From the NCBI GenBank assembly GCA_964638175.1, contig CAZWZY010000004.1:12926-76925 (forward strand): a stretch of 64,000 nucleotides of DNA. The letters are read 5' to 3'. Below are positions 2,325 to 43,233 of the stretch, in pieces. The notes beneath the pieces were generated by a model, which saw only the letters and a list, made by a program, of their open reading frames with translations, made no database searches and was not told the DNA's origin. The position numbers were made by a program, and so were the translations under genes. Numbering within the stretch: the first letter of the stretch is position 1; each line of letters begins with the position of its first letter. Origin of the DNA: an uncultured Thermoplasmatales archaeon (lineage in GTDB: Archaea; Thermoplasmatota; E2; DHVEG-1).

Positions 2325-3503
2325 CTATTGTTGGTAGAAGTATAATTTTTTCGAGCTATTATCTAATCGTGTCCCTTCGCCAATTTTATAGATGAAATTT
2401 GATGCTGTTTTTGCTTGAAAAGTAGTTCTGTTTTCTGCTTGTTCCACTGTATTGATTTCATGCAGACAAAAACTAAGCGCTCGAATCTTCCACCGTAGGT
2501 AGTATTGGTCAATCATTGTCGGATCATATTTTTTGACAAACCAATAAAGGAGTTCTACCCAATTGTTAATGTTTATCTGTTGTGATAGTTTGTAAAAAGT
2601 GTTGAAGTCAGTAACATCTCTCATTTTATAATAGATATCATCATGGGGAAGATACATCTTTTTCATCAGTTTAAAGCTTGAAAAACTCCGTTCAATTTCC
2701 TTTTTGATATCCATGTACCCTTCGTCAAAGACAGTATCCATTTCGAAAGGGGAAGCAATGCGCAGTACAGGCTTGATTTTCTTTCGTGCTGGAAGTTGAT
2801 AAAAGTATTGAATCATGCGCACTGCTTCTTCAAAGCACTGCACAAACATTTTTTTCAAATGCGTTAAGGTCTTTTTGTTATGCATTTTTTGTCCAAGATA
2901 GACTTCACCCATCTGATAGCCATAGATGAGTGATTTGATGGTAATAAAGGTATCAATTCCCCACCCGTAGGGAGGATTAATTCCTGTTGAAAATAAGTCC
3001 TTCAGTACTTCTGCTTTTAATGACAATTCGCCACCCAATGGCTGATCGATTTCCCAGGCGTTTGGGAAAAACATGGCAATCAAGGGTTTAGTGACGTGTC
3101 TGGTTATTTGTCCGTCAGTAGGATTTCGCGAAAAGGCGACTTTGACAATGTCTACATCTCGTTCAAGTGGTTCAAATAAAAAGGGGAACCACTTATTGAT
3201 ATTAGGACAAAAAATATCGCCATCCATATAAGCAATTCTCTCAAATCCTTGCTTGAGTGCGGCAAGGCCACCGTTAACCATACCAAGACCTTTCCCCATC
3301 TCGGTGGTATTCACATAGGTGTTTTCATGAATAACCTCGATAGTTTTTGTTTCCTTTGCTTTCAGTCGTTTAAACGTTTCTTCGTTTGACCCATCGGAAA
3401 TGATGATTTTGTCAATCACACCTGATTGCAGCGCTTCTTCTGCAAGAGAGAAGGGGTTGATTCCCTCATTTTTTGAGATGATGAGTAGACAATTCCCTGG
3501 CAT
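2325..3503 (-). CDS. GT-A fold glycosyltransferase (GT2/GT81-like, possibly a glycosyl-phosphoglycerate synthase type)
   Basis: The 392-aa product has an N-terminal nucleotide-sugar binding region (LLIISKNEGIN...IIISDGSNEE) and a DGD (DxD-like) motif at YMDGDIF. No TM segment was seen. Subfamily assignment is uncertain. Confidence 0.55.
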   Translation of the reverse strand: MPGNCLLIISKNEGINPFSLAEEALQSGVIDKIIISDGSNEETFKRLKAKETKTIEVIHENTYVNTTEMGKGLGMVNGGLAALKQGFERIAYMDGDIFCPNINKWFPFLFEPLERDVDIVKVAFSRNPTDGQITRHVTKPLIAMFFPNAWEIDQPLGGELSLKAEVLKDLFSTGINPPYGWGIDTFITIKSLIYGYQMGEVYLGQKMHNKKTLTHLKKMFVQCFEEAVRMIQYFYQLPARKKIKPVLRIASPFEMDTVFDEGYMDIKKEIERSFSSFKLMKKMYLPHDDIYYKMRDVTDFNTFYKLSQQININNWVELLYWFVKKYDPTMIDQYYLRWKIRALSFCLHEINTVEQAENRTTFQAKTASNFIYKIGEGTRLDNSSKKLYFYQQ

Positions 3504-3759: not shown

Positions 3760-4635
3760 ATGAAACAATCCTCTCATTCTACTGATCAGGCCGTACAAAA
3801 ACTACTCCAAGATCTGCAAAACGATAATTGGAATGTACGGGCAAATGCTGTGTTTGCATTAAAAAATTATGACATTCCTCAAGTAACCGATGCCTTGCTT
3901 CAAACCTTGAATGACGTGAATGAAAATGTCTGGCTTTCTGCTGTGAATGTATTAAAGGAAAAAAAAGACCCGCGGTTAGTTAAGCCCTTAGTAAAGACAT
4001 TACTTGAAGATAAACGAGACGAATTGCGATGGCACGCAGCATATGTACTGGGTGAGGTGGGGGATAAAACCGTTCTTGATCACATAGTGAAAGCCGTACA
4101 CGATCCCTGTGAGGAGGTTCGGGTTGACATTGCTCGTGCATTAGGAAAACTCGGAAATATCAAAGCTGTCGATTATCTCACACAAATGCTTGATGATGGA
4201 AGCCCGCGGGTGAGAAAAGAAGCCATTTCATCATTAAATGCACTGTCACCAACTACATCAAGTGATGCTCTTCTTAAATCGTTACAAGATACTGATAAAC
4301 GTGTGCGGTCGCTTGCCGCAATACTTGTTGGAAAAACAGGTAAAAAAGATGGAACTGTCCATCTGGTAAAAATGCTCAACGACCCCGATCCCGTAGTGCG
4401 GGTCTCTGCGATCTATGCATTAGATAAGCTTGGTGATCCGAATGCCGTTGAACCCTTGATTCATTGCTTGCAAGATTCATATTGGGAAGTTCGGAGTGAT
4501 GCCGCAACGGTGTTGGGAAAACTTGGTAACAGCAGAGCGATTGTCCCACTGCTTGATACTCTTCAAGATGAGAGTGGGTTCGTTCGCCATAGCGTGATAA
4601 AAGCATTGGAGAAATTTAATATCTTTAAAAAGTAA
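3760..4635 (+). CDS. HEAT-repeat (PBS-lyase type) protein
   Basis: The 291-aa product contains about 8 tandem repeats of roughly 31 aa following the pattern ...VR..A..ALGKLGD..AV.PL...L.D. This is the classic PBS lyase HEAT-like repeat. Confidence 0.75.
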   Translation: MKQSSHSTDQAVQKLLQDLQNDNWNVRANAVFALKNYDIPQVTDALLQTLNDVNENVWLSAVNVLKEKKDPRLVKPLVKTLLEDKRDELRWHAAYVLGEVGDKTVLDHIVKAVHDPCEEVRVDIARALGKLGNIKAVDYLTQMLDDGSPRVRKEAISSLNALSPTTSSDALLKSLQDTDKRVRSLAAILVGKTGKKDGTVHLVKMLNDPDPVVRVSAIYALDKLGDPNAVEPLIHCLQDSYWEVRSDAATVLGKLGNSRAIVPLLDTLQDESGFVRHSVIKALEKFNIFKK

Positions 4636-4776
4636 TGTTTCATATCTTTTCATATATCTTTTTATATGTCTTTTATGTGGCACTACATTGAGTTATACAA
4701 AACTGTGTTCCAATATCTATTTATATGATAGATGGTAATAATTGAAACCAGGACCAGTCCAAAGAGGACGTATATT

Positions 4777-5994
4777 ATGACTGTACATACCTCATTCGCC
4801 TTCCGCTCAGCTGTTCTGTTATGTATCATTAGTGTTCTTCTTCTTATCAGTTGGGCAGACCCACTGTTGGCAGCAGATGAAGCTGACATACGTGATAACC
4901 TCCTAGATACTAGTGGAATCCCTCCTTATGATTCCCCATTTACTACTTCCCAAAACGCAAACGCTACCCCTCTTTTTGTGAAGGGGGGTGTCGAGATTTC
5001 TGCTACCGAGGATACCGTTGTCACTCATATTTCAAACACTACCATTGATATCGCAAATGTCGATGGAACCACAAAAACAATAGATGTTACCCAAACAGTT
5101 GATTATTTATCCAATGCAACCCTTCACAAATCGATTAAAGGGTTGGATAATTACAAGGTGTCTGTTAATTTCGACTCATATGCTCCCGACTCTTTTACGT
5201 CTCTTGTAAATTACACTGTTGATTGGGGAAACGGTCAAGTTGAGGTAGGAAATGCAACAGTACTAACGACGCTTTCATATGTATATAGCAAGGAGGGAGA
5301 ATATCCTATCACTATTACATTAACCGACAGTAATGGGATTACGTATTCTTGTGTGAAAACCCAGTCTATTTCACTTTCAGCCGGTCAATACGTGCAACTC
5401 TGGATCGGAGACAACAAAGAAGTGGTTGCAGTAACCTCTGCAGCAGGATTTGGTAGTGTAGCCTTACTCGGCTTTGCCGCTACAGAAACAGGAAAATACA
5501 AACTCCTTGCCCTTCTCCCTTTGCTTATTCCCTTATACACTCGCATTCAAAAAGAAGATGTCCTGGATCAATTCGTTCGTGGAGAAATTTATGGATTCAT
5601 TAAGACACACCCAGGTGTCCATTATAACCAAATTATGAGAGAACTTGATGTCAAAAATGGCACGCTTTCCTATCATTTACACATGCTTGAAAAAACAGGC
5701 ATGGTCAAATCCCGAAAGGAGGGTCTTCGCTTTCGTGCCTTTTATCCCACTGGCATGAAGTTTCCCCAGGAAGAACGATACCGGCTGACCGAGCTACAGA
5801 CAAAGATCTTGAACTCTATTAAACAAAATGAAGGCATTAACCAAAAAGAAATTGCCCACGTGCTTGATGAGAAACATCAAACCATCAATTATAACATCAA
5901 AGTACTGCAACAAGCAGGACTTATCCATCTTCGAAAGAAAGGAAGAATGACCAATTGTTATATTTTTGAAGATGCCTATAGTCATGTTGCCTAA
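4777..5994 (+). CDS. Membrane-tethered transcription regulator: signal peptide, extracytoplasmic PKD-like domain, TM helix and two cytoplasmic winged-helix HTH domains
   Basis: The internal Met at 4777 gives a signal-like N-terminus (MTVHTSFAFRSAVLLCIISVLLLISWADPLLAA). An extracellular PKD-like segment follows (YTVDWGNGQVEVGNATV...YPITITLTDSNG). After a hydrophobic TM stretch (VALLGFAATE...LLALLPLLIPLY) come two ArsR/MarR-like wHTH units (IMRELDVKNGTLSYHLHMLEKTGMV and IAHVLDEKHQTINYNIKVLQQAGLI). Confidence 0.55.
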   Translation: MTVHTSFAFRSAVLLCIISVLLLISWADPLLAADEADIRDNLLDTSGIPPYDSPFTTSQNANATPLFVKGGVEISATEDTVVTHISNTTIDIANVDGTTKTIDVTQTVDYLSNATLHKSIKGLDNYKVSVNFDSYAPDSFTSLVNYTVDWGNGQVEVGNATVLTTLSYVYSKEGEYPITITLTDSNGITYSCVKTQSISLSAGQYVQLWIGDNKEVVAVTSAAGFGSVALLGFAATETGKYKLLALLPLLIPLYTRIQKEDVLDQFVRGEIYGFIKTHPGVHYNQIMRELDVKNGTLSYHLHMLEKTGMVKSRKEGLRFRAFYPTGMKFPQEERYRLTELQTKILNSIKQNEGINQKEIAHVLDEKHQTINYNIKVLQQAGLIHLRKKGRMTNCYIFEDAYSHVA

Positions 5995-6109
5995 TGCTAA
6001 TTTGTGACCTGTTTTTCTCCTTACATACAAAATTGATCACCGTAACGTTTAAGTAACACGCAAAAACCCGCTCCAAAGATGGTATATAAACCGCACAAGA
6101 TAATATCTG

Positions 6110-7321
6110 TTGTCCACAATAAAAACGGTGGACAGGATGTTGAATAGTATGAACGATAAAATCCACAACACGCTACGAAGCTGGAGATATGCTCGTCTTT
6201 GGAAACCTGTTACCGTCTGTATGATCGTATTTATTGCTCTTGCAGGATCCATACAGGCAGCACATACAGATTATTCTCAAGAAGCAAAACAAGTATCATC
6301 TGTTGTTCAGCCGATTGCTGCTGAACCCCAACCCTCATACGAATGGGTTCATTCGGGAAGAACTCTTTTTATTATAACCACGAACTCTGGAGAAACCATC
6401 TTTGCTGGCATTCAAGCAGTAATGCGTGTGCCACTCAACATGAAAACAGGACGGTTGTATTCCATCCCGGTATATTTCACACGGTTTACGCCACAACTTT
6501 GTGCCGCGTCAGAACTCAAGACCATTCCTACAGATAGTAATCAAGACATCTGCTGGAATCAAGATCACGCAGTAAGTATCCAGGCACAAAAACGTATCCC
6601 TCTAGATGTATTCATCGGTGTTGGTGCTGGTTCTCATTCATCGTGGAGTTGGTCCTCATCTCGGAGTGCTGCTGAGTCTAGACGACATGGGGTCACCATC
6701 GATATTGCGATCAATGGTGGCAGACCATGGAATTATCACATCCCATTGCGTGTTATATCAACGTATGCCCAAGATACAAATGTTCAACCAGTGGTATGTG
6801 GACTTACTCAACAGGTATGGATGTCTACACCATCCTATCACTATCTTTCCGATATTCCGACAAATACCTGGGATGGCCCGTATATTATCAAGGTGAAAAT
6901 TGACCCAGTATATACCTATCCTGCTGATGCAGAATATCTTGAGATCGACCAAGAGACACCTCCCGAACCACCTGTTGTAGAAGAAGAACAGGAAGATATC
7001 GATGATACAACTGAGTCCCTTCCAATAGAGGAACAATTGGTAGAGTCTCCCCCCGATTGTTCTGCCCCCTTTGTTTCAGCTGAAGAGACACCATCATCTA
7101 CTGACGTGTCACCCTCTCTTATGCAGGCTGGATTAAAATCAGTAAAATCTGTAGACATAACAACGGTAGACAACAAACCCATCTATAAGGTTAAAGGAGT
7201 AAAAAACGCAAAACTTCTGGGGATTATCAGCGTTGATATGGATGTTACACTTCAAATTGATATTGATACGGGTGAAATCCAAGCGATCCAAGAGCCATGG
7301 TGGGGATTCTTAGTCTCATAA
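6110..7321 (+). CDS. Membrane-anchored secreted protein with an acidic Pro/Glu-rich linker and a C-terminal PepSY-like domain (hypothetical)
   Basis: The 403-aa ORF may instead start at 6137. It has an N-terminal TM segment (VTVCMIVFIALAGSIQAA) and an acidic linker (EIDQETPPEPPVVEEEQEDIDDTTESLPIEEQLVESPP). The C-terminal module (KPIYKVKGVKNAKLLGIISVDMDVTLQIDIDTGEI) resembles PepSY. Confidence 0.45.
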   Translation: MSTIKTVDRMLNSMNDKIHNTLRSWRYARLWKPVTVCMIVFIALAGSIQAAHTDYSQEAKQVSSVVQPIAAEPQPSYEWVHSGRTLFIITTNSGETIFAGIQAVMRVPLNMKTGRLYSIPVYFTRFTPQLCAASELKTIPTDSNQDICWNQDHAVSIQAQKRIPLDVFIGVGAGSHSSWSWSSSRSAAESRRHGVTIDIAINGGRPWNYHIPLRVISTYAQDTNVQPVVCGLTQQVWMSTPSYHYLSDIPTNTWDGPYIIKVKIDPVYTYPADAEYLEIDQETPPEPPVVEEEQEDIDDTTESLPIEEQLVESPPDCSAPFVSAEETPSSTDVSPSLMQAGLKSVKSVDITTVDNKPIYKVKGVKNAKLLGIISVDMDVTLQIDIDTGEIQAIQEPWWGFLVS

Positions 7322-7450: not shown

Positions 7451-8137
7451 TCAATTCTTTTTCCATTGTTCTCCAAGATAATAGTGCTGATAATATGAAA
7501 AATCCTTTTCTTTTTCTTTTGTTGAAGCCTCTATGTTTCTCACCGTTTTTGATTTCTTTGGAAGATTAAATCGTTCAGCGACATCCTCGACGATTTTTAC
7601 AGGATTTGAAAGCACATCCTCATATCTAACATTAAGCGTAGGTGCAACATCTGCTAATGAAATGTATGAACCGTTCTTGCGATTCCACATTTCGATAGGA
7701 TTGTCAAATTGTGTTGTACCATGTTCACGTCCTATTGCTCTCCATGGTTCTGTGAGAAACTCCTCAAACGTTTCATATATGTTTTGAGCATGGTAGGGAT
7801 TGTTATATAACGAGAGCGACCAAGAGTACGGGTTTTTTGTCATGGTTATAAAACATACAGGTTTTGGATATGTAGCAATGACTTGCAAAAGGGTTGATGA
7901 TAGCAATGCATGTTTCCATCCAAGATTTTTTTGATAGGTCCGTTTGAAATAATAATCTATCAACGTTTCATCAAGATGCCTCCAAGGAACGAGCAGCCGT
8001 ATTGCGTCTGATAAGATGCTAACGTGACCAGGAACCACACCAGGCATTACAGAGACATCGAGATTTAATTGAAGTAATTGTGAAAGATAATTGGTGCCAG
8101 TGTTGCGCTCTCCATATATCTTGATTTTTTTACTCAC
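7451..8137 (-). CDS. Sulfotransferase-like P-loop protein (putative)
   Basis: The 228-aa product has an N-terminal IKIYGERNTGTNYL segment resembling the 5'-PSB motif (PKSGTTW-like). A later TKNPYSW segment resembles the 3'-PB region. Size matches small cytosolic sulfotransferases. Assignment is by motif only. Confidence 0.4.
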   Translation of the reverse strand: MSKKIKIYGERNTGTNYLSQLLQLNLDVSVMPGVVPGHVSILSDAIRLLVPWRHLDETLIDYYFKRTYQKNLGWKHALLSSTLLQVIATYPKPVCFITMTKNPYSWSLSLYNNPYHAQNIYETFEEFLTEPWRAIGREHGTTQFDNPIEMWNRKNGSYISLADVAPTLNVRYEDVLSNPVKIVEDVAERFNLPKKSKTVRNIEASTKEKEKDFSYYQHYYLGEQWKKN

Positions 8138-9245: not shown

Positions 9246-9369
9246 TGATGTTACTTATCTAAACATCACACTACCTCTCTTTTTTTCTTTTCATTCTACT
9301 GTGTTTCATTTTTTGCGAGGTATGTTTATAAAAAGAAATTTACATTCCTACTTTTTCTTATGGATGCGA

Positions 9370-9444
9370 TGCTCCCGTCGGGATTCGAACCCGAGTGGCC
9401 GGCTCGAAAGGCCGGAATGATTGGCCGGACTACACCACGGGAGC
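9370..9444 (-). tRNA. tRNA-Glu (anticodon UUC)
   Basis: The minus-strand reading GCTCCCGTGGTGTAGTCCGGCCAATCATTCCGGCCTTTCGAGCCGGCCACTCGGGTTCGAATCCCGACGGGAGCA folds as a cloverleaf. It has a 7-bp acceptor stem, a GGTTCGAATCC T-arm, and an anticodon stem CCGGC/GCCGG with loop CTTTCGA (anticodon TTC). No CCA is encoded. Coordinates are within a few nt. Confidence 0.85.
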
Positions 9445-9519
9445 AAATAGCCAAGGTAAGTGCCAAGAATACCAAATACTTATTAAAAGTTTGTTGGTAA
9501 AAGTTACCCAGGCTTTTTT

Positions 9520-10650: not shown

Positions 10651-11622
10651 ATGAAACTTTCCTTCCCACGATACCCAGCTGATATCATTTTGTGTGTCTT
10701 GTTGAGTTTCTTATTAATCCCCTTGTCATTCATAGATGTGGGGGAGCTACTGCACGTCATTCTAGGACTGCCCTTTGTGATATTCATACCAGGATATGTG
10801 CTTGTTTTTGCGCTTTTCCCCACTAGAAAGTCAGAAAAGGGGATCGATACTGTAGAACGAATTGCATTAAGCATCGGTCTCTCATTAGTAATCGTAGCTC
10901 TTATTGGAGTGGGACTTAATTACACGCCCTTTGATATACAACAATCCTCAAGTGGTTTTTGCCTTTTTTTCTTTATAATTAGTGTTGGAGCCGTTGCAAT
11001 CTATAGATGGATAAAGGCAGCCTCAGACGAGAGATTTTTCCTGTCTATTCACTTGTCATTGACAACACCTAAACATAATGTTGATAAGGTACTTCTTATT
11101 ATGTTAGTTATAGTAATAGCGCTTACCATCGTTACTTTTGCATATGTTGCAATTACTCCAAAGTCGGCTGAAACCTATACTGAATTTTATTTACTGGGCT
11201 CAGATGGTACTTTATCAGACTATCCCCAAAACTTATATGCTGGTGAAAATGCGACGGTGACTGTTGGAATTACCAATCATGAACATCGGCCTGTTGATTA
11301 CACTATTGAAATCTGGATCCTTAACCAAACAATCTCTTACGAGGGGTTAAAAAATACAACGATATATCATAATGCATGGTTCTTACGCAAAATCAATATC
11401 ACTTTGCCCTATGAATCCAAAGACACAGAAATGCCATGGACTCCGCAGTGGCTGTATAACTATACGTTTAATATCACAAAAAAAGGAGAGTTTAAAGTGC
11501 TGTTTCTTCTTTTTACTGCACCAACTCAAATGTATGTGCGTTATGAAGATTACACAAGCATAATTGAACAAAACATTAACAATGCGTATGAAGAATTGCA
11601 CCTAAACGTGGGCATTCTCTAA
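10651..11622 (+). CDS. Hypothetical membrane protein (N-terminal polytopic region plus extracellular N-glycosylation-sequon-rich domain; possibly DUF1616-like)
   Basis: The 323-aa product has about 5 TM helices followed by a soluble region with many N-x-S/T sequons (NATVTV, NQTIS, NTTIY, NITLP, NYTFNITK). Confidence 0.45.
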   Translation: MKLSFPRYPADIILCVLLSFLLIPLSFIDVGELLHVILGLPFVIFIPGYVLVFALFPTRKSEKGIDTVERIALSIGLSLVIVALIGVGLNYTPFDIQQSSSGFCLFFFIISVGAVAIYRWIKAASDERFFLSIHLSLTTPKHNVDKVLLIMLVIVIALTIVTFAYVAITPKSAETYTEFYLLGSDGTLSDYPQNLYAGENATVTVGITNHEHRPVDYTIEIWILNQTISYEGLKNTTIYHNAWFLRKINITLPYESKDTEMPWTPQWLYNYTFNITKKGEFKVLFLLFTAPTQMYVRYEDYTSIIEQNINNAYEELHLNVGIL

Positions 11623-29357: not shown

Positions 29358-29496
29358 TTAATCTAAGCTATAGAGTATTTTATTATTAAACATATTAAAT
29401 ATTTTTCTATATATAATTTTTACTGCAAACTCTGTAATAAAAGTGTATATTATCTTTTGATTTTCGCCAAACAAGAACAGCAATATTATTTTAAAA

Positions 29497-29567
29497 TAGC
29501 CCCGTCCAGATTCGAACTGGAGTCGCTGGCTCCAAAGGCCAACATGATTGACCGCTACACTACGGGG
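29497..29567 (-). tRNA. tRNA-Gln (anticodon UUG)
   Basis: The minus-strand reading GCCCCGTAGTGTAGCGGTCAATCATGTTGGCCTTTGGAGCCAGCGACTCCAGTTCGAATCTGGACGGGGC(T) has a GC-rich acceptor stem, a GTTCGAATC T-loop and an anticodon loop CTTTGGA (anticodon TTG). Coordinates are within a few nt. Confidence 0.75.
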
Positions 29568-29673
29568 CTATAGGATGTTGATGTACGGTCTGGATTAGAG
29601 TTTTCCTATATAACTTTGCTGTCCTCAAAGCATTTATAAGACTGGCATCATGTCTGACTGTTGAGGTCCGAAT

Positions 29674-40412: not shown

Positions 40413-41555
40413 ATGATGGTTATGAAAAAGAAATTTGGAAAGTACATACATGTCTGGAAAATAGAAGGTTTTGTCAATATCGAAAAAAAATTTAAAGAGA
40501 GTATTAAAAATCAACTATTATTAAAATATGGTAGTTACCAAAAAACATCCAGCATTATTGGTAAAATTACTGGAATGCATTTATCTTATTTTTTAAGAAA
40601 AGAGAATTCATTTATAAGTATTAATAAACTTTTTAGATTAACAAATGCATTAAAAATTCCAAATAATGTTGTTGAAAGGAAAATAATTAAGTATCGTGAT
40701 CATGGCGCCCAACAATCCTTTTTAATAAGATTTCCCTTTAAAATAAATCCTCTAATTATTAGAGTCATAGCACACATTCCAGGCGATGGAAATATTAGAA
40801 AAGATGGTTTTGCAAGATGGATTCAAAAAGATACTAGACCTATGAAAATTCTCTTAAAAAAATTAGGATTCCCAATTAAAATATCAAAAAGTCGATTTGT
40901 TTGCATACCAAGATTTTTGGTAAAAGTAATTTGCGTGTCATTAGATTTGCAACCTGTAGATTTGAATTCCTCAAAACTTATCGAAACGGTGATGAAATTA
41001 CCGCGTCGTTATCAAGTTCAAACTATTCTTGCTTTAATCGAGGATGAGGCAACAATAGATGTTAGAGGTTATGGAGTAATAAATATAAGATTAGCAAATA
41101 AAGATCTTATAATGGCTTATGCCAAGCTTTGCGATTCACTTGGTTATAAACGAAGTGATGTTATAAAGAAAGCAAACTCAGGTTTTGGGAAAGGTACAAT
41201 CATATATCAATTTGGAGTTCTTGCTGATGGCATTAGAAAATTAGGCATTGATTATAATAAAACAGTTAAAAAATACAGTAAACCTGGAGGATTGTGGAAA
41301 AAGGACAATGCATTTAAACAAAGATATAGAAAAGCTCTTAGCCCTAGAGCTTTAAAGTGTAACGAATGGAGGAAAATAACCAAAAAAGTTTTAAAATTAT
41401 TCGAGAAGCACGAGGAATTAAGCGTTAAGAAAATATGTGATTTAATGAACACAGATGACTATAGCAGAGTTTATGAGAAAGTTAAATATCTATATAAAAC
41501 AGCAAGAATCAAAAGAGTAGGTTATGGGAAATATGCCCTAATTTATTATTTTTGA
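40413..41555 (+). CDS. Orphan lysine-rich hypothetical protein inside an AT-rich islet (weak LAGLIDADG-like motifs)
   Basis: The 380-aa product is very basic and Lys/Ile-rich, and the locus is visibly lower in GC than its flanks. A VIAHIPGDGNIRKDG segment resembles the LAGLIDADG (hhGhhDGDG) box. ALIEDEATIDVRGYG is a possible degenerate second box. Confidence 0.4.
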   Translation: MMVMKKKFGKYIHVWKIEGFVNIEKKFKESIKNQLLLKYGSYQKTSSIIGKITGMHLSYFLRKENSFISINKLFRLTNALKIPNNVVERKIIKYRDHGAQQSFLIRFPFKINPLIIRVIAHIPGDGNIRKDGFARWIQKDTRPMKILLKKLGFPIKISKSRFVCIPRFLVKVICVSLDLQPVDLNSSKLIETVMKLPRRYQVQTILALIEDEATIDVRGYGVINIRLANKDLIMAYAKLCDSLGYKRSDVIKKANSGFGKGTIIYQFGVLADGIRKLGIDYNKTVKKYSKPGGLWKKDNAFKQRYRKALSPRALKCNEWRKITKKVLKLFEKHEELSVKKICDLMNTDDYSRVYEKVKYLYKTARIKRVGYGKYALIYYF

Positions 41556-43121
41556 AACATATGGTCCATCTCTTGAATAACCTTGCTTGATGTAATATTT
41601 CTTGACTCCTACTCCTGAAATCACAACAATCTTCTTTGCATCATATTCCTCTTTGGCAATTTTTTCTGCGTTTTGAAGTAATAGTTTTCCATAACCCCTA
41701 TGTTGCCAACCGTTTTTAATACTGGCATCTAATGGCTTCATCGGACCATAAACATGAAGTTCACGTACAATCATACATTTTTTTCCAGTAATTTCAGATC
41801 TATGTGATTTTTCCGAAGGGCATCTCAACCTTAGAAATGCAATCAATATATCCTGTTTTACATCCTCATAAGAGAGAAATATTTCTTCCCCCTCAGAAGC
41901 CGTATACCTCTCGTTCAATAATTTTATATCTCTAGCTCTAGGTTCCATTCCTTCATTTAACTTTATATGTCCAACTTCTCTACATCGAATACATCTACAT
42001 TTAAAACTTTGATCTTGAACTATTTGTCTTAAATTACTCTTTTTCACACCAGATACAACCAGGTTTGATGGAATATCTCTTTGAATACGTTGAACTCTAA
42101 TCCATCTTGGTATTGATTTTTTAACTTCACGAATTAATTTAATCACTTTCTCTTCAGAATATGGTTTGTAATCACCTTTTTCCAACATTTTATATAATTT
42201 AGTTCCTTCAGTAACCAGTGTTGGATAAATCTTTAAACTATCGGGTTTAAAACAATTATCTTTAAAGAGCGTTCTGAAAGCGGTAATGTCTAGATTATAA
42301 TTTGAGTCTATTAAATTTGGCATCACATGATATGTTACTTTTAACCCAGCATCTTTTGCAATTCTTGTTGCCATGATTGAATCGCTAACTGTATGACCAC
42401 GATTCATCATTGTTAAAATATCATCATAAATTGTTTGAATTCCGAGTTCTACCCTTGTTGCACCCCAGGAAAGGCTTAAATCACAATGTCTAAGTCTAAA
42501 CCAATCCGGGCGAGTTTCTACAGTAAGGCCAATGCATCGAGATTTTGCTGTTTCATTAATCTTTTTTGCTTCTGATAGATTTTTAGAATCTATTTTATTT
42601 AAAGCATCATAACATCGCTTAACGAACCAATCTTGATAATAAGGAGTTCTTGCTGTAAATGTACCACCCATAATTATAAAATCGATTTTATCGGTAGGAT
42701 GTCCAATTGCGCGTAATTGCTCCAGACGATTCTTGGTCTGTAAGTACGGATCAAAATCATTCAATGTTGCGCGCATCGCTGCCGGTTCAAATCCCGTGTA
42801 GCTTTGTGGCGTCTGGTAGTCAGGACCTCCGGGGCAGGGTGTACACTTCCCATGGGGGCATGCTTCAGGCGAGGTCATCACCGCAATGATAGCAACACCA
42901 GAAATCGTACGCATCGGTTTTTTACGGAGAACAGACGTTGCCCACTCACGATCATCTTCAGAACAGTCGGAAGGCAATTGGGCAAGAATCTCACTATCGG
43001 GTGGAACCGTATCTAAGTGGTATTTTTTACAGAGCTTTATTTTTGTTTTATGAAGTTCTTCCTTTGATTGTATCTGTTTGGTAAGGATGAGATTGGTAAT
43101 CTCGGTGTAAAACGACATCAC
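41538..43121 (-). CDS. elp3: Elp3-type tRNA uridine(34) acetyltransferase (radical SAM plus GNAT)
   Basis: The 527-aa product has a radical-SAM Cys cluster region (ACPHGKCTPCPGGP) and a C-terminal GNAT (HRGYGKLLLQNAEKIAKEEY). Confidence 0.85.
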   Translation of the reverse strand: MMSFYTEITNLILTKQIQSKEELHKTKIKLCKKYHLDTVPPDSEILAQLPSDCSEDDREWATSVLRKKPMRTISGVAIIAVMTSPEACPHGKCTPCPGGPDYQTPQSYTGFEPAAMRATLNDFDPYLQTKNRLEQLRAIGHPTDKIDFIIMGGTFTARTPYYQDWFVKRCYDALNKIDSKNLSEAKKINETAKSRCIGLTVETRPDWFRLRHCDLSLSWGATRVELGIQTIYDDILTMMNRGHTVSDSIMATRIAKDAGLKVTYHVMPNLIDSNYNLDITAFRTLFKDNCFKPDSLKIYPTLVTEGTKLYKMLEKGDYKPYSEEKVIKLIREVKKSIPRWIRVQRIQRDIPSNLVVSGVKKSNLRQIVQDQSFKCRCIRCREVGHIKLNEGMEPRARDIKLLNERYTASEGEEIFLSYEDVKQDILIAFLRLRCPSEKSHRSEITGKKCMIVRELHVYGPMKPLDASIKNGWQHRGYGKLLLQNAEKIAKEEYDAKKIVVISGVGVKKYYIKQGYSRDGPYVSKIIN

Positions 43122-43233
43122 CTTCTCAATGCTATGACAGATAAAAATCTTTGTCCTTTATAGATCAGGAAAATGAAAGATATGTTTATTAAGGATGTTT
43201 TGATGATAAGCAAACACTGAGGAGAGACCCCTG

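What the first reader, a model, noticed from the sequence alone, without database searches (positions are those of the whole stretch)
4777..7321. One-component transmembrane regulator with extracellular PKD-like sensor and twin winged helices, paired with a PepSY-like membrane protein
The 406-aa protein has a signal peptide, a PKD/Ig-like ectodomain, one TM helix and two cytoplasmic wHTH domains. A DNA-binding domain tethered to the membrane with an extracytoplasmic sensor resembles bacterial ToxR/CadC-type regulators. Such regulators are barely characterised in archaea. The next gene, on the same strand, encodes a membrane-anchored acidic protein ending in a PepSY-like module. PepSY domains often regulate or sense at the cell surface. 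The two may form a sensing pair.
Basis: inference. Interest (0 to 1): 0.55.

Follow-up and report, generated by a model that had tools for sequence, protein, structure and literature searches.

The report
Membrane-tethered regulator and its cargo gene
An uncultured archaeon (Thermoplasmatota) encodes a DNA-binding protein anchored in the cell membrane with a sensor-like part outside; the next gene encodes an exported protein, and its promoter carries a signature found beside this regulator family in many genomes, which points to a compact, untested outside-to-gene signalling unit.

Summary
Gene A (4777-5994) encodes a 405-aa protein with a signal peptide, an acidic ectodomain with a PKD fold, one transmembrane helix and two almost invariant cytoplasmic winged helices. 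It belongs to a family of at least 309 proteins, essentially all from Thermoplasmatota. Gene B (6137/6149-7321) encodes an exported acidic protein that ends in a divergent PepSY-like module.

A is not a ToxR/CadC member. Its topology is reversed and its DNA-binding domains are ArsR/MarR-like, so the likeness is only an analogy. Transmembrane regulators are already catalogued in archaea.

The new result is a 38-nt promoter element: two TCAAAA-like boxes next to the TATA box. It is conserved in front of A genes across the family. A related version lies just 3' of A in 25 of 52 loci, against 0.7% of background windows. In those loci the next gene varies but nearly always encodes an exported protein. 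In a separate metagenome scan, 15 of 24 exact matches lay directly behind an A gene. In this window the two best matches are the A and B promoters.

The likely model is that A autoregulates and controls its neighbour. A surface "sensing pair" with B is untested, and B occurs only in one sub-clade.

The parts
4692..4729 (+). Promoter element of gene A (A-type box): CAAAA at 4698-4702, TCCAAT at 4709-4714, TATA-like TTTATAT at 4720-4726
   Evidence: This is the top hit in the whole window, both strands (24.2 bits; next best 11.5), for a weight matrix trained only on A-gene promoters of distant loci. It is conserved in orthologous loci. A regex version is found upstream of A genes in 25 of 50 loci, against 3.5% of background windows.
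4777..5994 (+). Gene A: 405-aa type-I membrane protein of the family with a PKD ectodomain, one TM helix and tandem winged helices
   Evidence: ORF; Pfam; at least 309 homologues, all Thermoplasmatota-type MAGs; AlphaFold2 model; Foldseek.
4777..4875 (+). Signal peptide or N-terminal hydrophobic segment (aa 1-33; possible cleavage after SWA27 or LLA32)
   Evidence: Kyte-Doolittle peak of 2.41 and Hessa-scale sum of -0.6. Homologues have n-h-c type N-termini that end in Ala-x-Ala-like motifs. Cleavage is inferred, not predicted by a dedicated tool.
4876..5418 (+). Ectodomain (aa 34-214): disordered acidic stretch, a small beta domain, then a PKD domain at about aa 112-198 (nt 5110-5370) with a VDWGNG motif
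   Evidence: PKD_4 E = 1e-5. Foldseek matches PKD1 of PrtV and Epp with TM-score 0.71-0.73. pI is 4.2 and there are 5 N-x-S/T sequons. This is the variable part of the family alignment.
5419..5550 (+). Transmembrane helix (aa 215-236) and the nearly invariant juxtamembrane segment TETGKYKLLALLPLLIPLYTRIQKEDV (aa 237-258)
   Evidence: Hydropathy. After the TM segment there are on average 3.8 Lys/Arg, against 1.7 before it, across 66 homologues. The segment is conserved.
5551..5964 (+). Two cytoplasmic winged helices: wHTH1 (aa 259-335; ArsR/HTH_20/HVO_0163_N type) and wHTH2 (aa 336-396; MarR/HTH_24 type)
   Evidence: Pfam hits above the curated cut-offs. wHTH1 matches PDB 5duk at E = 2.7e-9. 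pLDDT is about 90. The recognition helices NGTLSYHL..LEK and QTINYNIKVL are invariant or nearly so. The cytoplasmic part has pI 9.5.
6011..6018 (+). T-run (TGTTTTTCT) after the stop codon of A; a possible archaeal terminator, so A and B are probably separate transcripts
   Evidence: Read directly from the sequence. Inference only.
6028..6056 (+). Upstream module of the B promoter: CAAAA at 6028-6032, CACCGTAA at 6038-6045, TTTAAGTAA at 6048-6056
   Evidence: Conserved across B-bearing loci even though B proteins fall to 35% identity. Tandem modules 33 nt apart are seen in many downstream promoters of other clades.
6055..6092 (+). Promoter element of gene B (downstream-type box): CAAAA(A) at 6061-6066, TCCAAA at 6072-6077, TATATAAA at 6083-6090
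   Evidence: This is the top hit in the whole window (34.3 bits; next best 12.6) for a matrix trained on sites 3' of A genes in other clades, with no B-family promoter in the training set. It ranks 6th with the A-type matrix (7.2 bits).
6111..6134 (+). Perfect inverted repeat TGTCCAC-N10-GTGGACA between the TATA box and the B start codon: a candidate operator or 5'-leader hairpin
   Evidence: It is unique in the window, with 0 expected by chance. The stem is kept with compensatory changes in L001, L007 and L061 and is shorter in L008.
6137..7321 (+). Gene B: exported acidic protein. Alternative start at 6149, as in homologues; the ORF opens at TTG 6110. Basic N-terminus plus hydrophobic segment at nt 6176-6265; beta-rich domain of unknown family at nt 6329-6922; Pro/Glu-rich acidic linker at nt 6923-7126
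   Evidence: ORF. No Pfam or NCBIfam hit. Only three other full-length clusters among 1.84 billion representatives. Always directly 3' of an A gene. The AlphaFold2 model is poor, with pLDDT 43.
7127..7318 (+). C-terminal PepSY-like module of B (aa 331-394), ending in PWWGFL
   Evidence: The representatives search gave 424 proteins at E <= 1e-3; apart from four B-family entries, the 150 listed match only this module, nearly always at their extreme C-terminus. PepSY PF03413 is hit by 34 of 49 such modules at E <= 0.1; B's own module scores E = 0.069.

Best explanation
Gene A encodes a type-I, single-pass transmembrane transcription regulator of a large family restricted to Thermoplasmatota. Its layout is a signal peptide, a variable, acidic, probably N-glycosylated ectodomain with a PKD fold outside the cell, one membrane helix, and an almost invariant juxtamembrane segment with two winged helices inside the cell.

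The proposed mechanism is as follows. The tandem winged helices bind a bipartite box that abuts the TATA box. The box consists of two TCAAAA/TCCAAA-like elements whose starts lie 12-13 nt apart. It occurs in A's own promoter and, in a related form, in the promoter of the gene immediately downstream. The state of the ectodomain would thus be coupled to expression of the regulator and of a neighbouring gene for an exported protein. That neighbour is interchangeable between clades. In this window it is gene B, a clade-specific exported protein with an unknown beta-rich domain, an acidic linker and a divergent PepSY-like C-terminal module.

Shown here: the domain architecture, family membership, conservation pattern, the box and its tight association with A genes.

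Inferred: the topology (hydropathy, charge and sequon bias only), that A is the protein that binds the box, the direction of regulation, and the signal.
For: Architecture.

Topology.

Family: at least 309 homologues with the same layout. The ectodomain is variable. The cytoplasmic part is nearly invariant, including both recognition helices.

A-type box. A matrix trained on 20 unique A-gene promoters of distant loci picks the window's A promoter as its top hit (24.2 bits against 11.5 for the next).

The same matrix across loci. It scores >= 7 bits in the 490 nt just 3' of A in 25 of 52 non-redundant loci, against 0.72% of 1,666 background windows. Across 1.18 Mb there are 44 hits at A promoters, 37 just 3' of A and 18 elsewhere.

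Downstream gene. The ORF that follows has an N-terminal hydrophobic segment in 20 of 22 cases. These ORFs belong to unrelated families: the B family, transglutaminase-like proteins, surface proteins of 765-1256 aa, and small secreted proteins.

Downstream-type box. A matrix trained on these downstream sites, without any B promoter, picks the window's B promoter as top hit (34.3 bits against 12.6).

Independent reverse test. The exact downstream-type pattern has 26 matches in the metagenome collection. Of 24 testable matches, 15 lie directly behind an A-family gene.

B adjacency. B is adjacent to A in 7 of 7 lineages. This includes L061, where the upstream HEAT gene is absent.

Concerted change. 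In the distant L052/L053 clade, box 2 reads ACAAAT in both promoters and both recognition helices differ.
Against: No experiment or binding model links A to the box. The box could be read by another factor.

The A-type and downstream-type boxes are related but distinct. Cross-scores are only 7.2 and 6.5 bits, ranks 6 and 8 in the window.

About half of the loci lack a downstream box. In most of these a cytoplasmic SLOG-family gene follows A closely.

Nine of 24 metagenome matches have no A gene nearby.

The TM segment is only moderately hydrophobic (+2.0 on the Hessa scale), and no dedicated topology predictor was available.

Tandem winged helices also serve in protein-protein contacts; Foldseek hits include ScpB and ESCRT-II.

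The concerted box and helix change rests on a single clade.
Confidence: 0.55

Rival explanations
1. A and its neighbour are co-regulated, but not by A. The box is read by a different factor, such as a specialised TFB/TBP paralogue or another transcription factor. A then binds other targets or an unknown sequence.
For: The element abuts and includes the TATA box, where TFB/TBP bind. Matches also occur at exported-protein genes with no A gene in the locus. No binding data exist.
Against: The box is tied very tightly to A genes, in two independent collections. The near-invariant recognition helices parallel the family-wide conservation of the box. Both boxes and both helices change together in L052/L053.
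Confidence: 0.2
2. A and B form a ToxR/ToxS-like sensing pair at the cell surface. B, through its PepSY-like module or its unknown domain, contacts A's PKD ectodomain and modulates it. This could hold in addition to B being a target of A.
For: Strict adjacency of B to A in 7 of 7 lineages. Both proteins are predicted to be extracytoplasmic. PepSY-type modules are weakly detected.
Against: No co-variation or complex model was obtained, because the B model is unusable (pLDDT 43). B exists only in one sub-clade, while the A family is far wider. In other clades unrelated exported proteins occupy the same slot. The PepSY-like module is a promiscuous C-terminal module found on many unrelated proteins.
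Confidence: 0.2
3. A is not a transcription factor. Its tandem winged helices instead tether DNA non-specifically, or recruit a protein partner, at the membrane, giving it a structural or segregation role.
For: Foldseek finds ScpB, ESCRT-II and TFIIIC tandem winged-helix proteins among the hits.
Against: Those matches have low TM-scores (0.2-0.36) and large rmsd values, whereas the ArsR/MarR matches are tighter (TM-score 0.64-0.70, rmsd 2-3 A). Both domains pass the Pfam cut-offs for DNA-binding HTH families. The cytoplasmic part is basic. A conserved cis element accompanies the gene.
Confidence: 0.07
4. The A-B adjacency is only inherited gene order in close relatives and has no functional meaning.
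For: The whole neighbourhood (Lhr helicase, YjeF, NAC, MGS-like glycosyltransferase, HEAT protein, A) is syntenic in the sub-clade.
Against: Flanks on both sides change while A-B stays together (L007, L008, L061). The B promoter is the window's best instance of a box that follows A genes in unrelated contexts.
Confidence: 0.05

Closest known systems
ToxR (with ToxS) and CadC, bacterial single-pass transmembrane transcription regulators
   Same: One polypeptide joins an extracytoplasmic domain, a single membrane helix and a winged-helix DNA-binding part. They act on nearby genes. ToxR has an adjacent gene for a surface partner.
   Different: The topology is opposite: in ToxR and CadC the DNA-binding domain is N-terminal and the sensor C-terminal. 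Their DNA-binding domain is OmpR/PhoB-type, not ArsR/MarR-like. They have one winged helix, not two. There is no homology and no signal peptide.
ArnR/ArnR1 of Sulfolobus acidocaldarius, membrane-bound archaeal one-component regulators of archaellum and pili genes (PMC6396743; listed)
   Same: They are archaeal, membrane-bound and helix-turn-helix based, and they control genes for cell-surface structures.
   Different: From my own knowledge, ArnR has an N-terminal cytoplasmic HTH and C-terminal membrane helices with no sizeable ectodomain. It belongs to a different family and a different phylum.
Transmembrane transcription regulators as a class (Demey et al. 2023, PMC10269533)
   Same: A meets the class definition: a DNA-binding domain plus at least one transmembrane region. 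The survey counted 1,384 archaeal members, and single-pass proteins are the commonest type.
   Different: The main text of the paper does not mention PKD, Thermoplasmatota or this architecture (0 occurrences). No cis element or neighbour-gene rule is described there.
Soluble archaeal ArsR-type winged-helix proteins (Pfam HVO_0163_N; PDB 5duk)
   Same: wHTH1 matches PF24266 above its cut-off and matches 5duk at E = 2.7e-9.
   Different: As far as seen here, those are small soluble proteins. A adds a signal peptide, a PKD ectodomain, a membrane helix and a second winged helix.
PepSY domain (PF03413; M4 protease propeptides, YpeB)
   Same: B's C-terminal module and its relatives share the PepSY-like pattern Y-x-V ... 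D-x-x-T-G-x-I, and many of them hit PF03413 weakly.
   Different: B's own score is below the Pfam cut-off. The module is always at the extreme C-terminus and carries an extra, nearly invariant PWW(S/G)FL tail that is not part of PepSY.

Membership tests
Transmembrane transcription regulators (class defined by Demey et al. 2023) | Contains a recognised DNA-binding domain | tested here: met
   HTH_20 scores 53.5 bits (cut-off 27), HTH_24 scores 50.0 (21.9) and HTH_HVO_0163_N scores 45.1 (31). ArsR/MarR structural matches.
Transmembrane transcription regulators (class defined by Demey et al. 2023) | Contains at least one transmembrane region | tested here: met
   aa 215-236 give a Kyte-Doolittle value of 1.87 and a Hessa-scale sum of +2.0. 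The hydrophobic stretch is conserved in 66 homologues. No dedicated predictor was available.
Transmembrane transcription regulators (class defined by Demey et al. 2023) | Actually binds DNA and regulates transcription from the membrane | not testable with these tools
   There is only indirect support from the conserved promoter box linked to the gene.
ToxR/CadC family | N-terminal cytoplasmic OmpR/PhoB-type winged helix (Trans_reg_C) | tested here: not met
   No Trans_reg_C is among the 25 best of 29 Pfam families listed at E <= 0.1. The DNA-binding domains are C-terminal and ArsR/MarR-like.
ToxR/CadC family | C-terminal periplasmic sensor domain after the single TM helix | tested here: not met
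   The ectodomain is N-terminal, behind a signal peptide. The C-terminus is cytoplasmic.
PKD domain (PF00801/PF18911) | Sequence match at the curated Pfam threshold | tested here: inconclusive
   PKD_4 scores 25.9 bits against a cut-off of 27, and PKD scores 18.4 against 23.5. A WDxGDG-like motif, VDWGNG, is present.
PKD domain (PF00801/PF18911) | PKD beta-sandwich fold | tested here: met
   Foldseek matches 4l9d, 6aem and 2y72 with probability 1.0, TM-score 0.70-0.73 and rmsd 3.4-3.9 A over 87-88 columns. Model pLDDT in this region is 80-93.
ArsR/SmtB metalloregulators | Family-level match plus metal- or ligand-sensing sites | tested here: not met
   NCBIfam HTH_metalloreg scores 48.3 bits against a cut-off of 55, and all equivalog models score far below their cut-offs. 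Only the HTH fold is shared. Sensing sites were not examined.
PepSY (PF03413), for gene B | Sequence match at the curated Pfam threshold | tested here: not met
   B's module scores 13.9 bits against a cut-off of 24 (E = 0.069). Of 49 related modules, 34 hit at E <= 0.1, with the best at 2.4e-6.
PepSY (PF03413), for gene B | PepSY fold | tested here: inconclusive
   The AlphaFold2 model of B has pLDDT 43, and under 40 in the module. The profile search against PDB found only a PepSY propeptide, at E = 0.27.

The most novel reading that the evidence does not exclude
Across Thermoplasmatota there is a conserved three-part cassette. It consists of a type-I membrane-tethered tandem winged-helix regulator, a bipartite box on its own promoter and on the next promoter, and an interchangeable 'cargo' gene for an exported protein (the B family, transglutaminase-like proteins, giant surface proteins). 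The regulator reads the outside through its fast-evolving PKD ectodomain. It holds its own locus at the membrane, where the cargo is made and exported. The cargo may in turn act back on the ectodomain. This would be a general archaeal way of wiring surface-protein expression to surface state. It would come with a defined operator and hundreds of natural variants for study.
Probability: 0.3. Interest if true: 0.7.

Novelty: new variant of a known kind. Interest (0 to 1): 0.5.

Why it matters
Little is known about how archaea pass information across the membrane to genes. Thermoplasmatota are abundant in sediments and oceans but are mostly uncultured.

This family offers a simple, single-protein route. 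It comes with a concrete candidate operator, a predicted autoregulatory loop and a predicted target next door. All of these can be tested with a soluble 169-aa fragment and short DNA probes.

The pattern of a conserved regulator and promoter with swappable exported cargo also suggests a way to predict which surface proteins are conditionally expressed in uncultured archaea.

Separately, the C-terminal PepSY-like module with a PWW(S/G)FL tail is shared by hundreds of otherwise unrelated secreted proteins. It may be a surface-attachment or sorting module that current domain libraries do not describe.

Tried and rejected
(1) ToxR/CadC membership. Rejected because of the reversed topology and the different DNA-binding domain type.

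(2) Start codon at 4732. Rejected because the conserved TATA-like sequence lies at 4720-4726, a Shine-Dalgarno precedes 4777, and the closest homologue (90% identity) is also 405 aa.

(3) A second transmembrane helix at aa 238-256, which would put the winged helices outside. Rejected because only 12 residues are hydrophobic and the Hessa-scale sum is +11.3.

(4) Structure of B. The five-sequence alignment gave pLDDT 43, so no fold search was run on it.

(5) Word-index homologue searches for B and for its C-terminal module gave only 2 hits each. The exhaustive representatives search was needed.

(6) PDB profile searches for B and for its module found nothing significant.

(7) HEAT-repeat gene (3760-4635) as a third member of the unit. 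It is conserved upstream in the sub-clade, and its promoter has a CAAAA...TATCAA layout by eye. However, it is not among the top matrix hits and is absent from L061 and L012. It is left out.

(8) Simple regex counts of CAAAA-N4-8-TCCAAW in the window are not above chance (2 found, 1.4 expected). The claim therefore rests on matrices trained elsewhere and on the reverse scan.

(9) Naming the organisms that carry the PepSY-like module. Cluster look-ups and two contig look-ups gave no organism names.

(10) Literature. No paper was found on this family. HVO_0163 is mentioned once, as an ArsR-type protein more abundant after hypochlorite exposure.
Full report
**What is there**

Gene A runs from 4777 to 5994 and encodes 405 aa. 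A longer reading from the ATG at 4732 is unlikely. A conserved TATA-like TTTATAT lies at 4720-4726, a GAGG precedes 4777, and the closest homologue is also 405 aa. Gene B opens at TTG 6110. Its likely start is ATG 6137 or, as in homologues, ATG 6149, and it ends at 7321. A T-run follows the stop codon of A, and B has its own TATA box. The two genes are therefore probably separate transcripts, although this is inferred.

**Gene A, anatomy**

- Pfam finds two winged helices above the curated cut-offs: HTH_20 and HVO_0163_N at aa 267-335, and HTH_24/MarR at 337-388. It finds a PKD domain at 129-195 just below the cut-off.
- An AlphaFold2 model built on 66 homologues has mean pLDDT 76. It shows an N-terminal helix, a disordered acidic stretch, beta-sandwiches at 66-198, a low-confidence helical membrane region, and two winged helices with pLDDT about 90.
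- Foldseek against the PDB returns the PKD1 domains of PrtV and Epp (TM-score 0.71-0.73). It also returns ArsR/MarR repressors (0.64-0.70) and, more loosely, tandem winged-helix proteins.
- wHTH1 matches PDB 5duk by sequence at E = 2.7e-9.

**Gene A, topology**

No dedicated predictor was available, so the topology rests on indirect evidence.

- There is a strongly hydrophobic N-terminal segment, followed by Ala-x-Ala-like sites throughout the family.
- There is one moderately hydrophobic segment at aa 215-236.
- More Lys/Arg follow that segment than precede it (3.8 against 1.7).
- The ectodomain has pI 4.2 and 2.3 N-glycosylation sequons per 100 aa. The cytoplasmic part has pI 9.5 and 0.66 sequons per 100 aa.
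- The short hydrophobic stretch after the TM helix (LLALLPLLIPLY) is too short and too polar at its edges to cross the membrane.

**The A family**

- At least 309 proteins of 400-460 aa share the layout. The named ones are 'helix-turn-helix domain-containing protein' from Thermoplasmatota MAGs.
- A scan of one genome per species returned 49 loci. Nearly all are Thermoplasmatota-type MAGs; one weak partial hit is from a Nitrosocosmicus MAG.
- The ectodomain varies, and some members have ectodomains of 600-800 aa.
- The juxtamembrane segment and both recognition helices are invariant or nearly so.

**Gene B**

- B has a basic N-terminus and one hydrophobic segment. Whether this is a signal peptide or an anchor is undecided.
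- It then has a beta-rich domain of about 200 aa with no family match, a Pro/Glu-rich linker with 21 acidic and no basic residues, and a 64-aa C-terminal module.
- An exhaustive search of 1.84 billion representatives found only three other full-length clusters.
- The same search returned 424 proteins at E <= 1e-3. Apart from four B-family entries, the 150 listed match only the C-terminal module.
- In those proteins the module nearly always sits at the extreme C-terminus and ends in PWW(S/G)FL. It is attached to unrelated N-terminal parts, including transglutaminase, reprolysin-like peptidase and Ig-like domains.
- PepSY is hit by 34 of 49 such modules at E <= 0.1 (best 2.4e-6). B's own module stays below the Pfam cut-off.
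- The structure model of B was unusable.

**Is the pair conserved?**

- B-family genes sit directly 3' of an A gene on the same strand in all seven lineages where the context can be seen.
- Across these lineages A falls to about 57-59% identity and B to 31-37%.
- The flanks change around the pair. In L061 the HEAT-repeat and glycosyltransferase genes that precede A in the window are missing, yet A-B remains.
- The reverse does not hold. L010, L012 and all other clades have an A gene without B.
- In those clades the same-strand downstream gene is one of several types:
  - a transglutaminase-like membrane protein;
  - a giant surface protein;
  - a small secreted protein;
  - a cytoplasmic SLOG cluster4 protein, in a large clade.

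**A conserved promoter box**

Aligning the intergenic regions showed that DNA upstream of B is better conserved than B itself, and that A's promoter is conserved too. Both promoters contain CAAAA, then TCCAA(A/T) about 12 nt later, then the TATA box.

This was noticed after the fact, and a simple regex is not above chance in the window. I therefore used tests that do not depend on the window.

1. A relaxed regex matched upstream of A genes in 25 of 50 loci, against 3.5% of background 320-nt windows. Most of the remaining loci show visible variants.
2. I trained a 38-nt weight matrix only on A promoters of distant loci (20 unique sites). It picks the window's A promoter as the best of 128,000 positions, at 24.2 bits against 11.5 for the next.
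3. Scanned over all loci, this matrix gives 44 hits at A promoters, 37 in the 490 nt just 3' of A, and 18 elsewhere in 1.18 Mb.
4. On non-redundant loci, 25 of 52 have a hit 3' of A, against 0.72% of 1,666 background windows. The ORF that follows has an N-terminal hydrophobic segment in 20 of 22 cases.
5. A second matrix was trained on these downstream sites from other clades, with no B promoter included. It picks the window's B promoter as its top hit, at 34.3 bits against 12.6.
6. As a reverse test in an independent collection, the exact downstream-type pattern has 26 matches in JGI metagenomes. Of 24 testable matches, 15 lie directly behind an A-family gene. Most of the rest precede other exported proteins.

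Many downstream promoters carry two modules 33 nt apart, and the window has this too (6028-6056 and 6055-6092). In the distant L052/L053 clade, the second box reads ACAAAT in both promoters and both recognition helices differ. This is a single case of concerted change.

A separate feature lies between the TATA box and the start codon of B. It is a perfect 7-bp inverted repeat at 6111-6134, unique in the window. Its stem is kept by compensatory changes in other lineages. It could be an operator or a leader hairpin next to the ribosome-binding site.

**How it most likely works**

A is a membrane-tethered one-component regulator. Its two different winged helices in one chain fit a bipartite, non-palindromic site with boxes about one helical turn apart. 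The position against the TATA box would let it help or hinder TBP/TFB binding.

The box is on A's own promoter, which suggests autoregulation. It is also on the next promoter, which suggests control of the neighbouring exported protein, here B. A target next door, whose product is itself inserted into the membrane, would keep the DNA within reach of a membrane-bound factor. This last point is inference from what is discussed for such regulators in general.

The signal is unknown. The fast-evolving PKD ectodomain suggests a protein or glycan ligand at the cell surface. Release of the cytoplasmic part by proteolysis is possible but untested. Another factor might read the box instead of A, and I give that about one chance in five.

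**Comparison with known systems and novelty**

A meets the definition of a transmembrane transcription regulator, a class already surveyed in archaea (PMC10269533). It is not a ToxR/CadC member. Its orientation and DNA-binding type also differ from ArnR. The architecture is new within the class: type-I topology, PKD ectodomain and tandem ArsR/MarR-like winged helices. So is the rule of a regulator, a shared box and a variable exported neighbour. I found nothing on either in the held literature. I rate it a new variant of a known kind.

**Verdict**

The ToxR/CadC label and the 'sensing pair' are not established. A regulator-target relation between A and B is reasonably supported by comparative evidence. 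Interest is 0.5. The class is known and the function is untested, but the finding yields a defined, family-wide operator hypothesis that can be tested directly.

Noticed in passing
window 7127-7318 (C-terminus of gene B); proteins P0125-P0271: A C-terminal module of about 65 aa, PepSY-like and ending in a nearly invariant PWW(S/G)FL. It sits at the extreme C-terminus of hundreds of otherwise unrelated secreted proteins, including transglutaminase, reprolysin-like and Ig-like proteins. Pfam PepSY detects it only weakly. It may be an undescribed surface-attachment or sorting module.
   Followed up: partly
window 6111-6134: A perfect inverted repeat, TGTCCAC-N10-GTGGACA, lies between the TATA box and the start codon of B. 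Its stem is kept with compensatory changes in related loci. It could be an operator or a leader hairpin next to the ribosome-binding site.
   Followed up: partly
L025 7232-7738, L033 7168-7680, L018 7896-8405 and about 13 further loci: In a large clade of the A family the gene after A encodes a 168-176-aa SLOG cluster4 protein (PF18306, E = 1e-41). SLOG domains are thought to bind nucleotide-derived ligands. In clades with a cargo gene, the cargo seems to lie between A and this gene.
   Followed up: no
window 3760-4635 (+): A 291-aa HEAT/PBS-lyase-like repeat protein is conserved directly upstream of A in the window's sub-clade. By eye its promoter has a similar GCAAAA...TATCAA...TATA layout, but it does not score with the weight matrices. 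It is absent from L061 and L012.
   Followed up: partly
L022 4286-4323 (- strand): A strong A-type box (21.1 bits) also faces the divergently transcribed upstream gene, a 363-aa protein with an N-terminal membrane segment. The box may therefore serve both neighbours in some genomes.
   Followed up: no
L074, L077, L079, L065, L076 (metagenome loci): Exact downstream-type boxes precede exported proteins (182 to 1422 aa) with no A gene in the fetched DNA. These may be distal members of the same regulon.
   Followed up: no
L080, L082, L090 (metagenome loci): Three near-identical matches to the box pattern (CATCATACAAAACTATGCTCCAAAT...) have neither an A gene nor a sizeable ORF after them. They remain unexplained.
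   Followed up: no
L054 4003-6495, L055 4420-6933, L029 2801-4780, L044 884-5453: Some family members appear to have much larger ectodomains: ORFs of 659 aa (L029; my ORF call here runs upstream of the promoter box, so it is overlong) and 830-837 aa. In L044 the ectodomain may be fused to, or split from, a 1351-aa ORF. The extracellular part therefore looks modular.
   Followed up: no
window 43171-43208 (-) upstream of 41538-43118 (-): The promoter region of an ELP3-like radical-SAM/GNAT gene scores 8.4 bits with the A-type matrix, ranking third in the window. This is probably a chance resemblance.
   Followed up: no
window 9368-9445 (-) and 29496-29570 (-): tRNA-Glu(TTC) and tRNA-Gln(TTG) genes. 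These are the only Rfam or ARAGORN hits in the window.
   Followed up: yes
window 2325-3503 (-), 7451-8137 (-), 10651-11622 (+): The surrounding genes point to cell-envelope functions: a mannosylglycerate-synthase-like glycosyltransferase, a weak sulfotransferase-like protein and a DUF1616 membrane protein.
   Followed up: no
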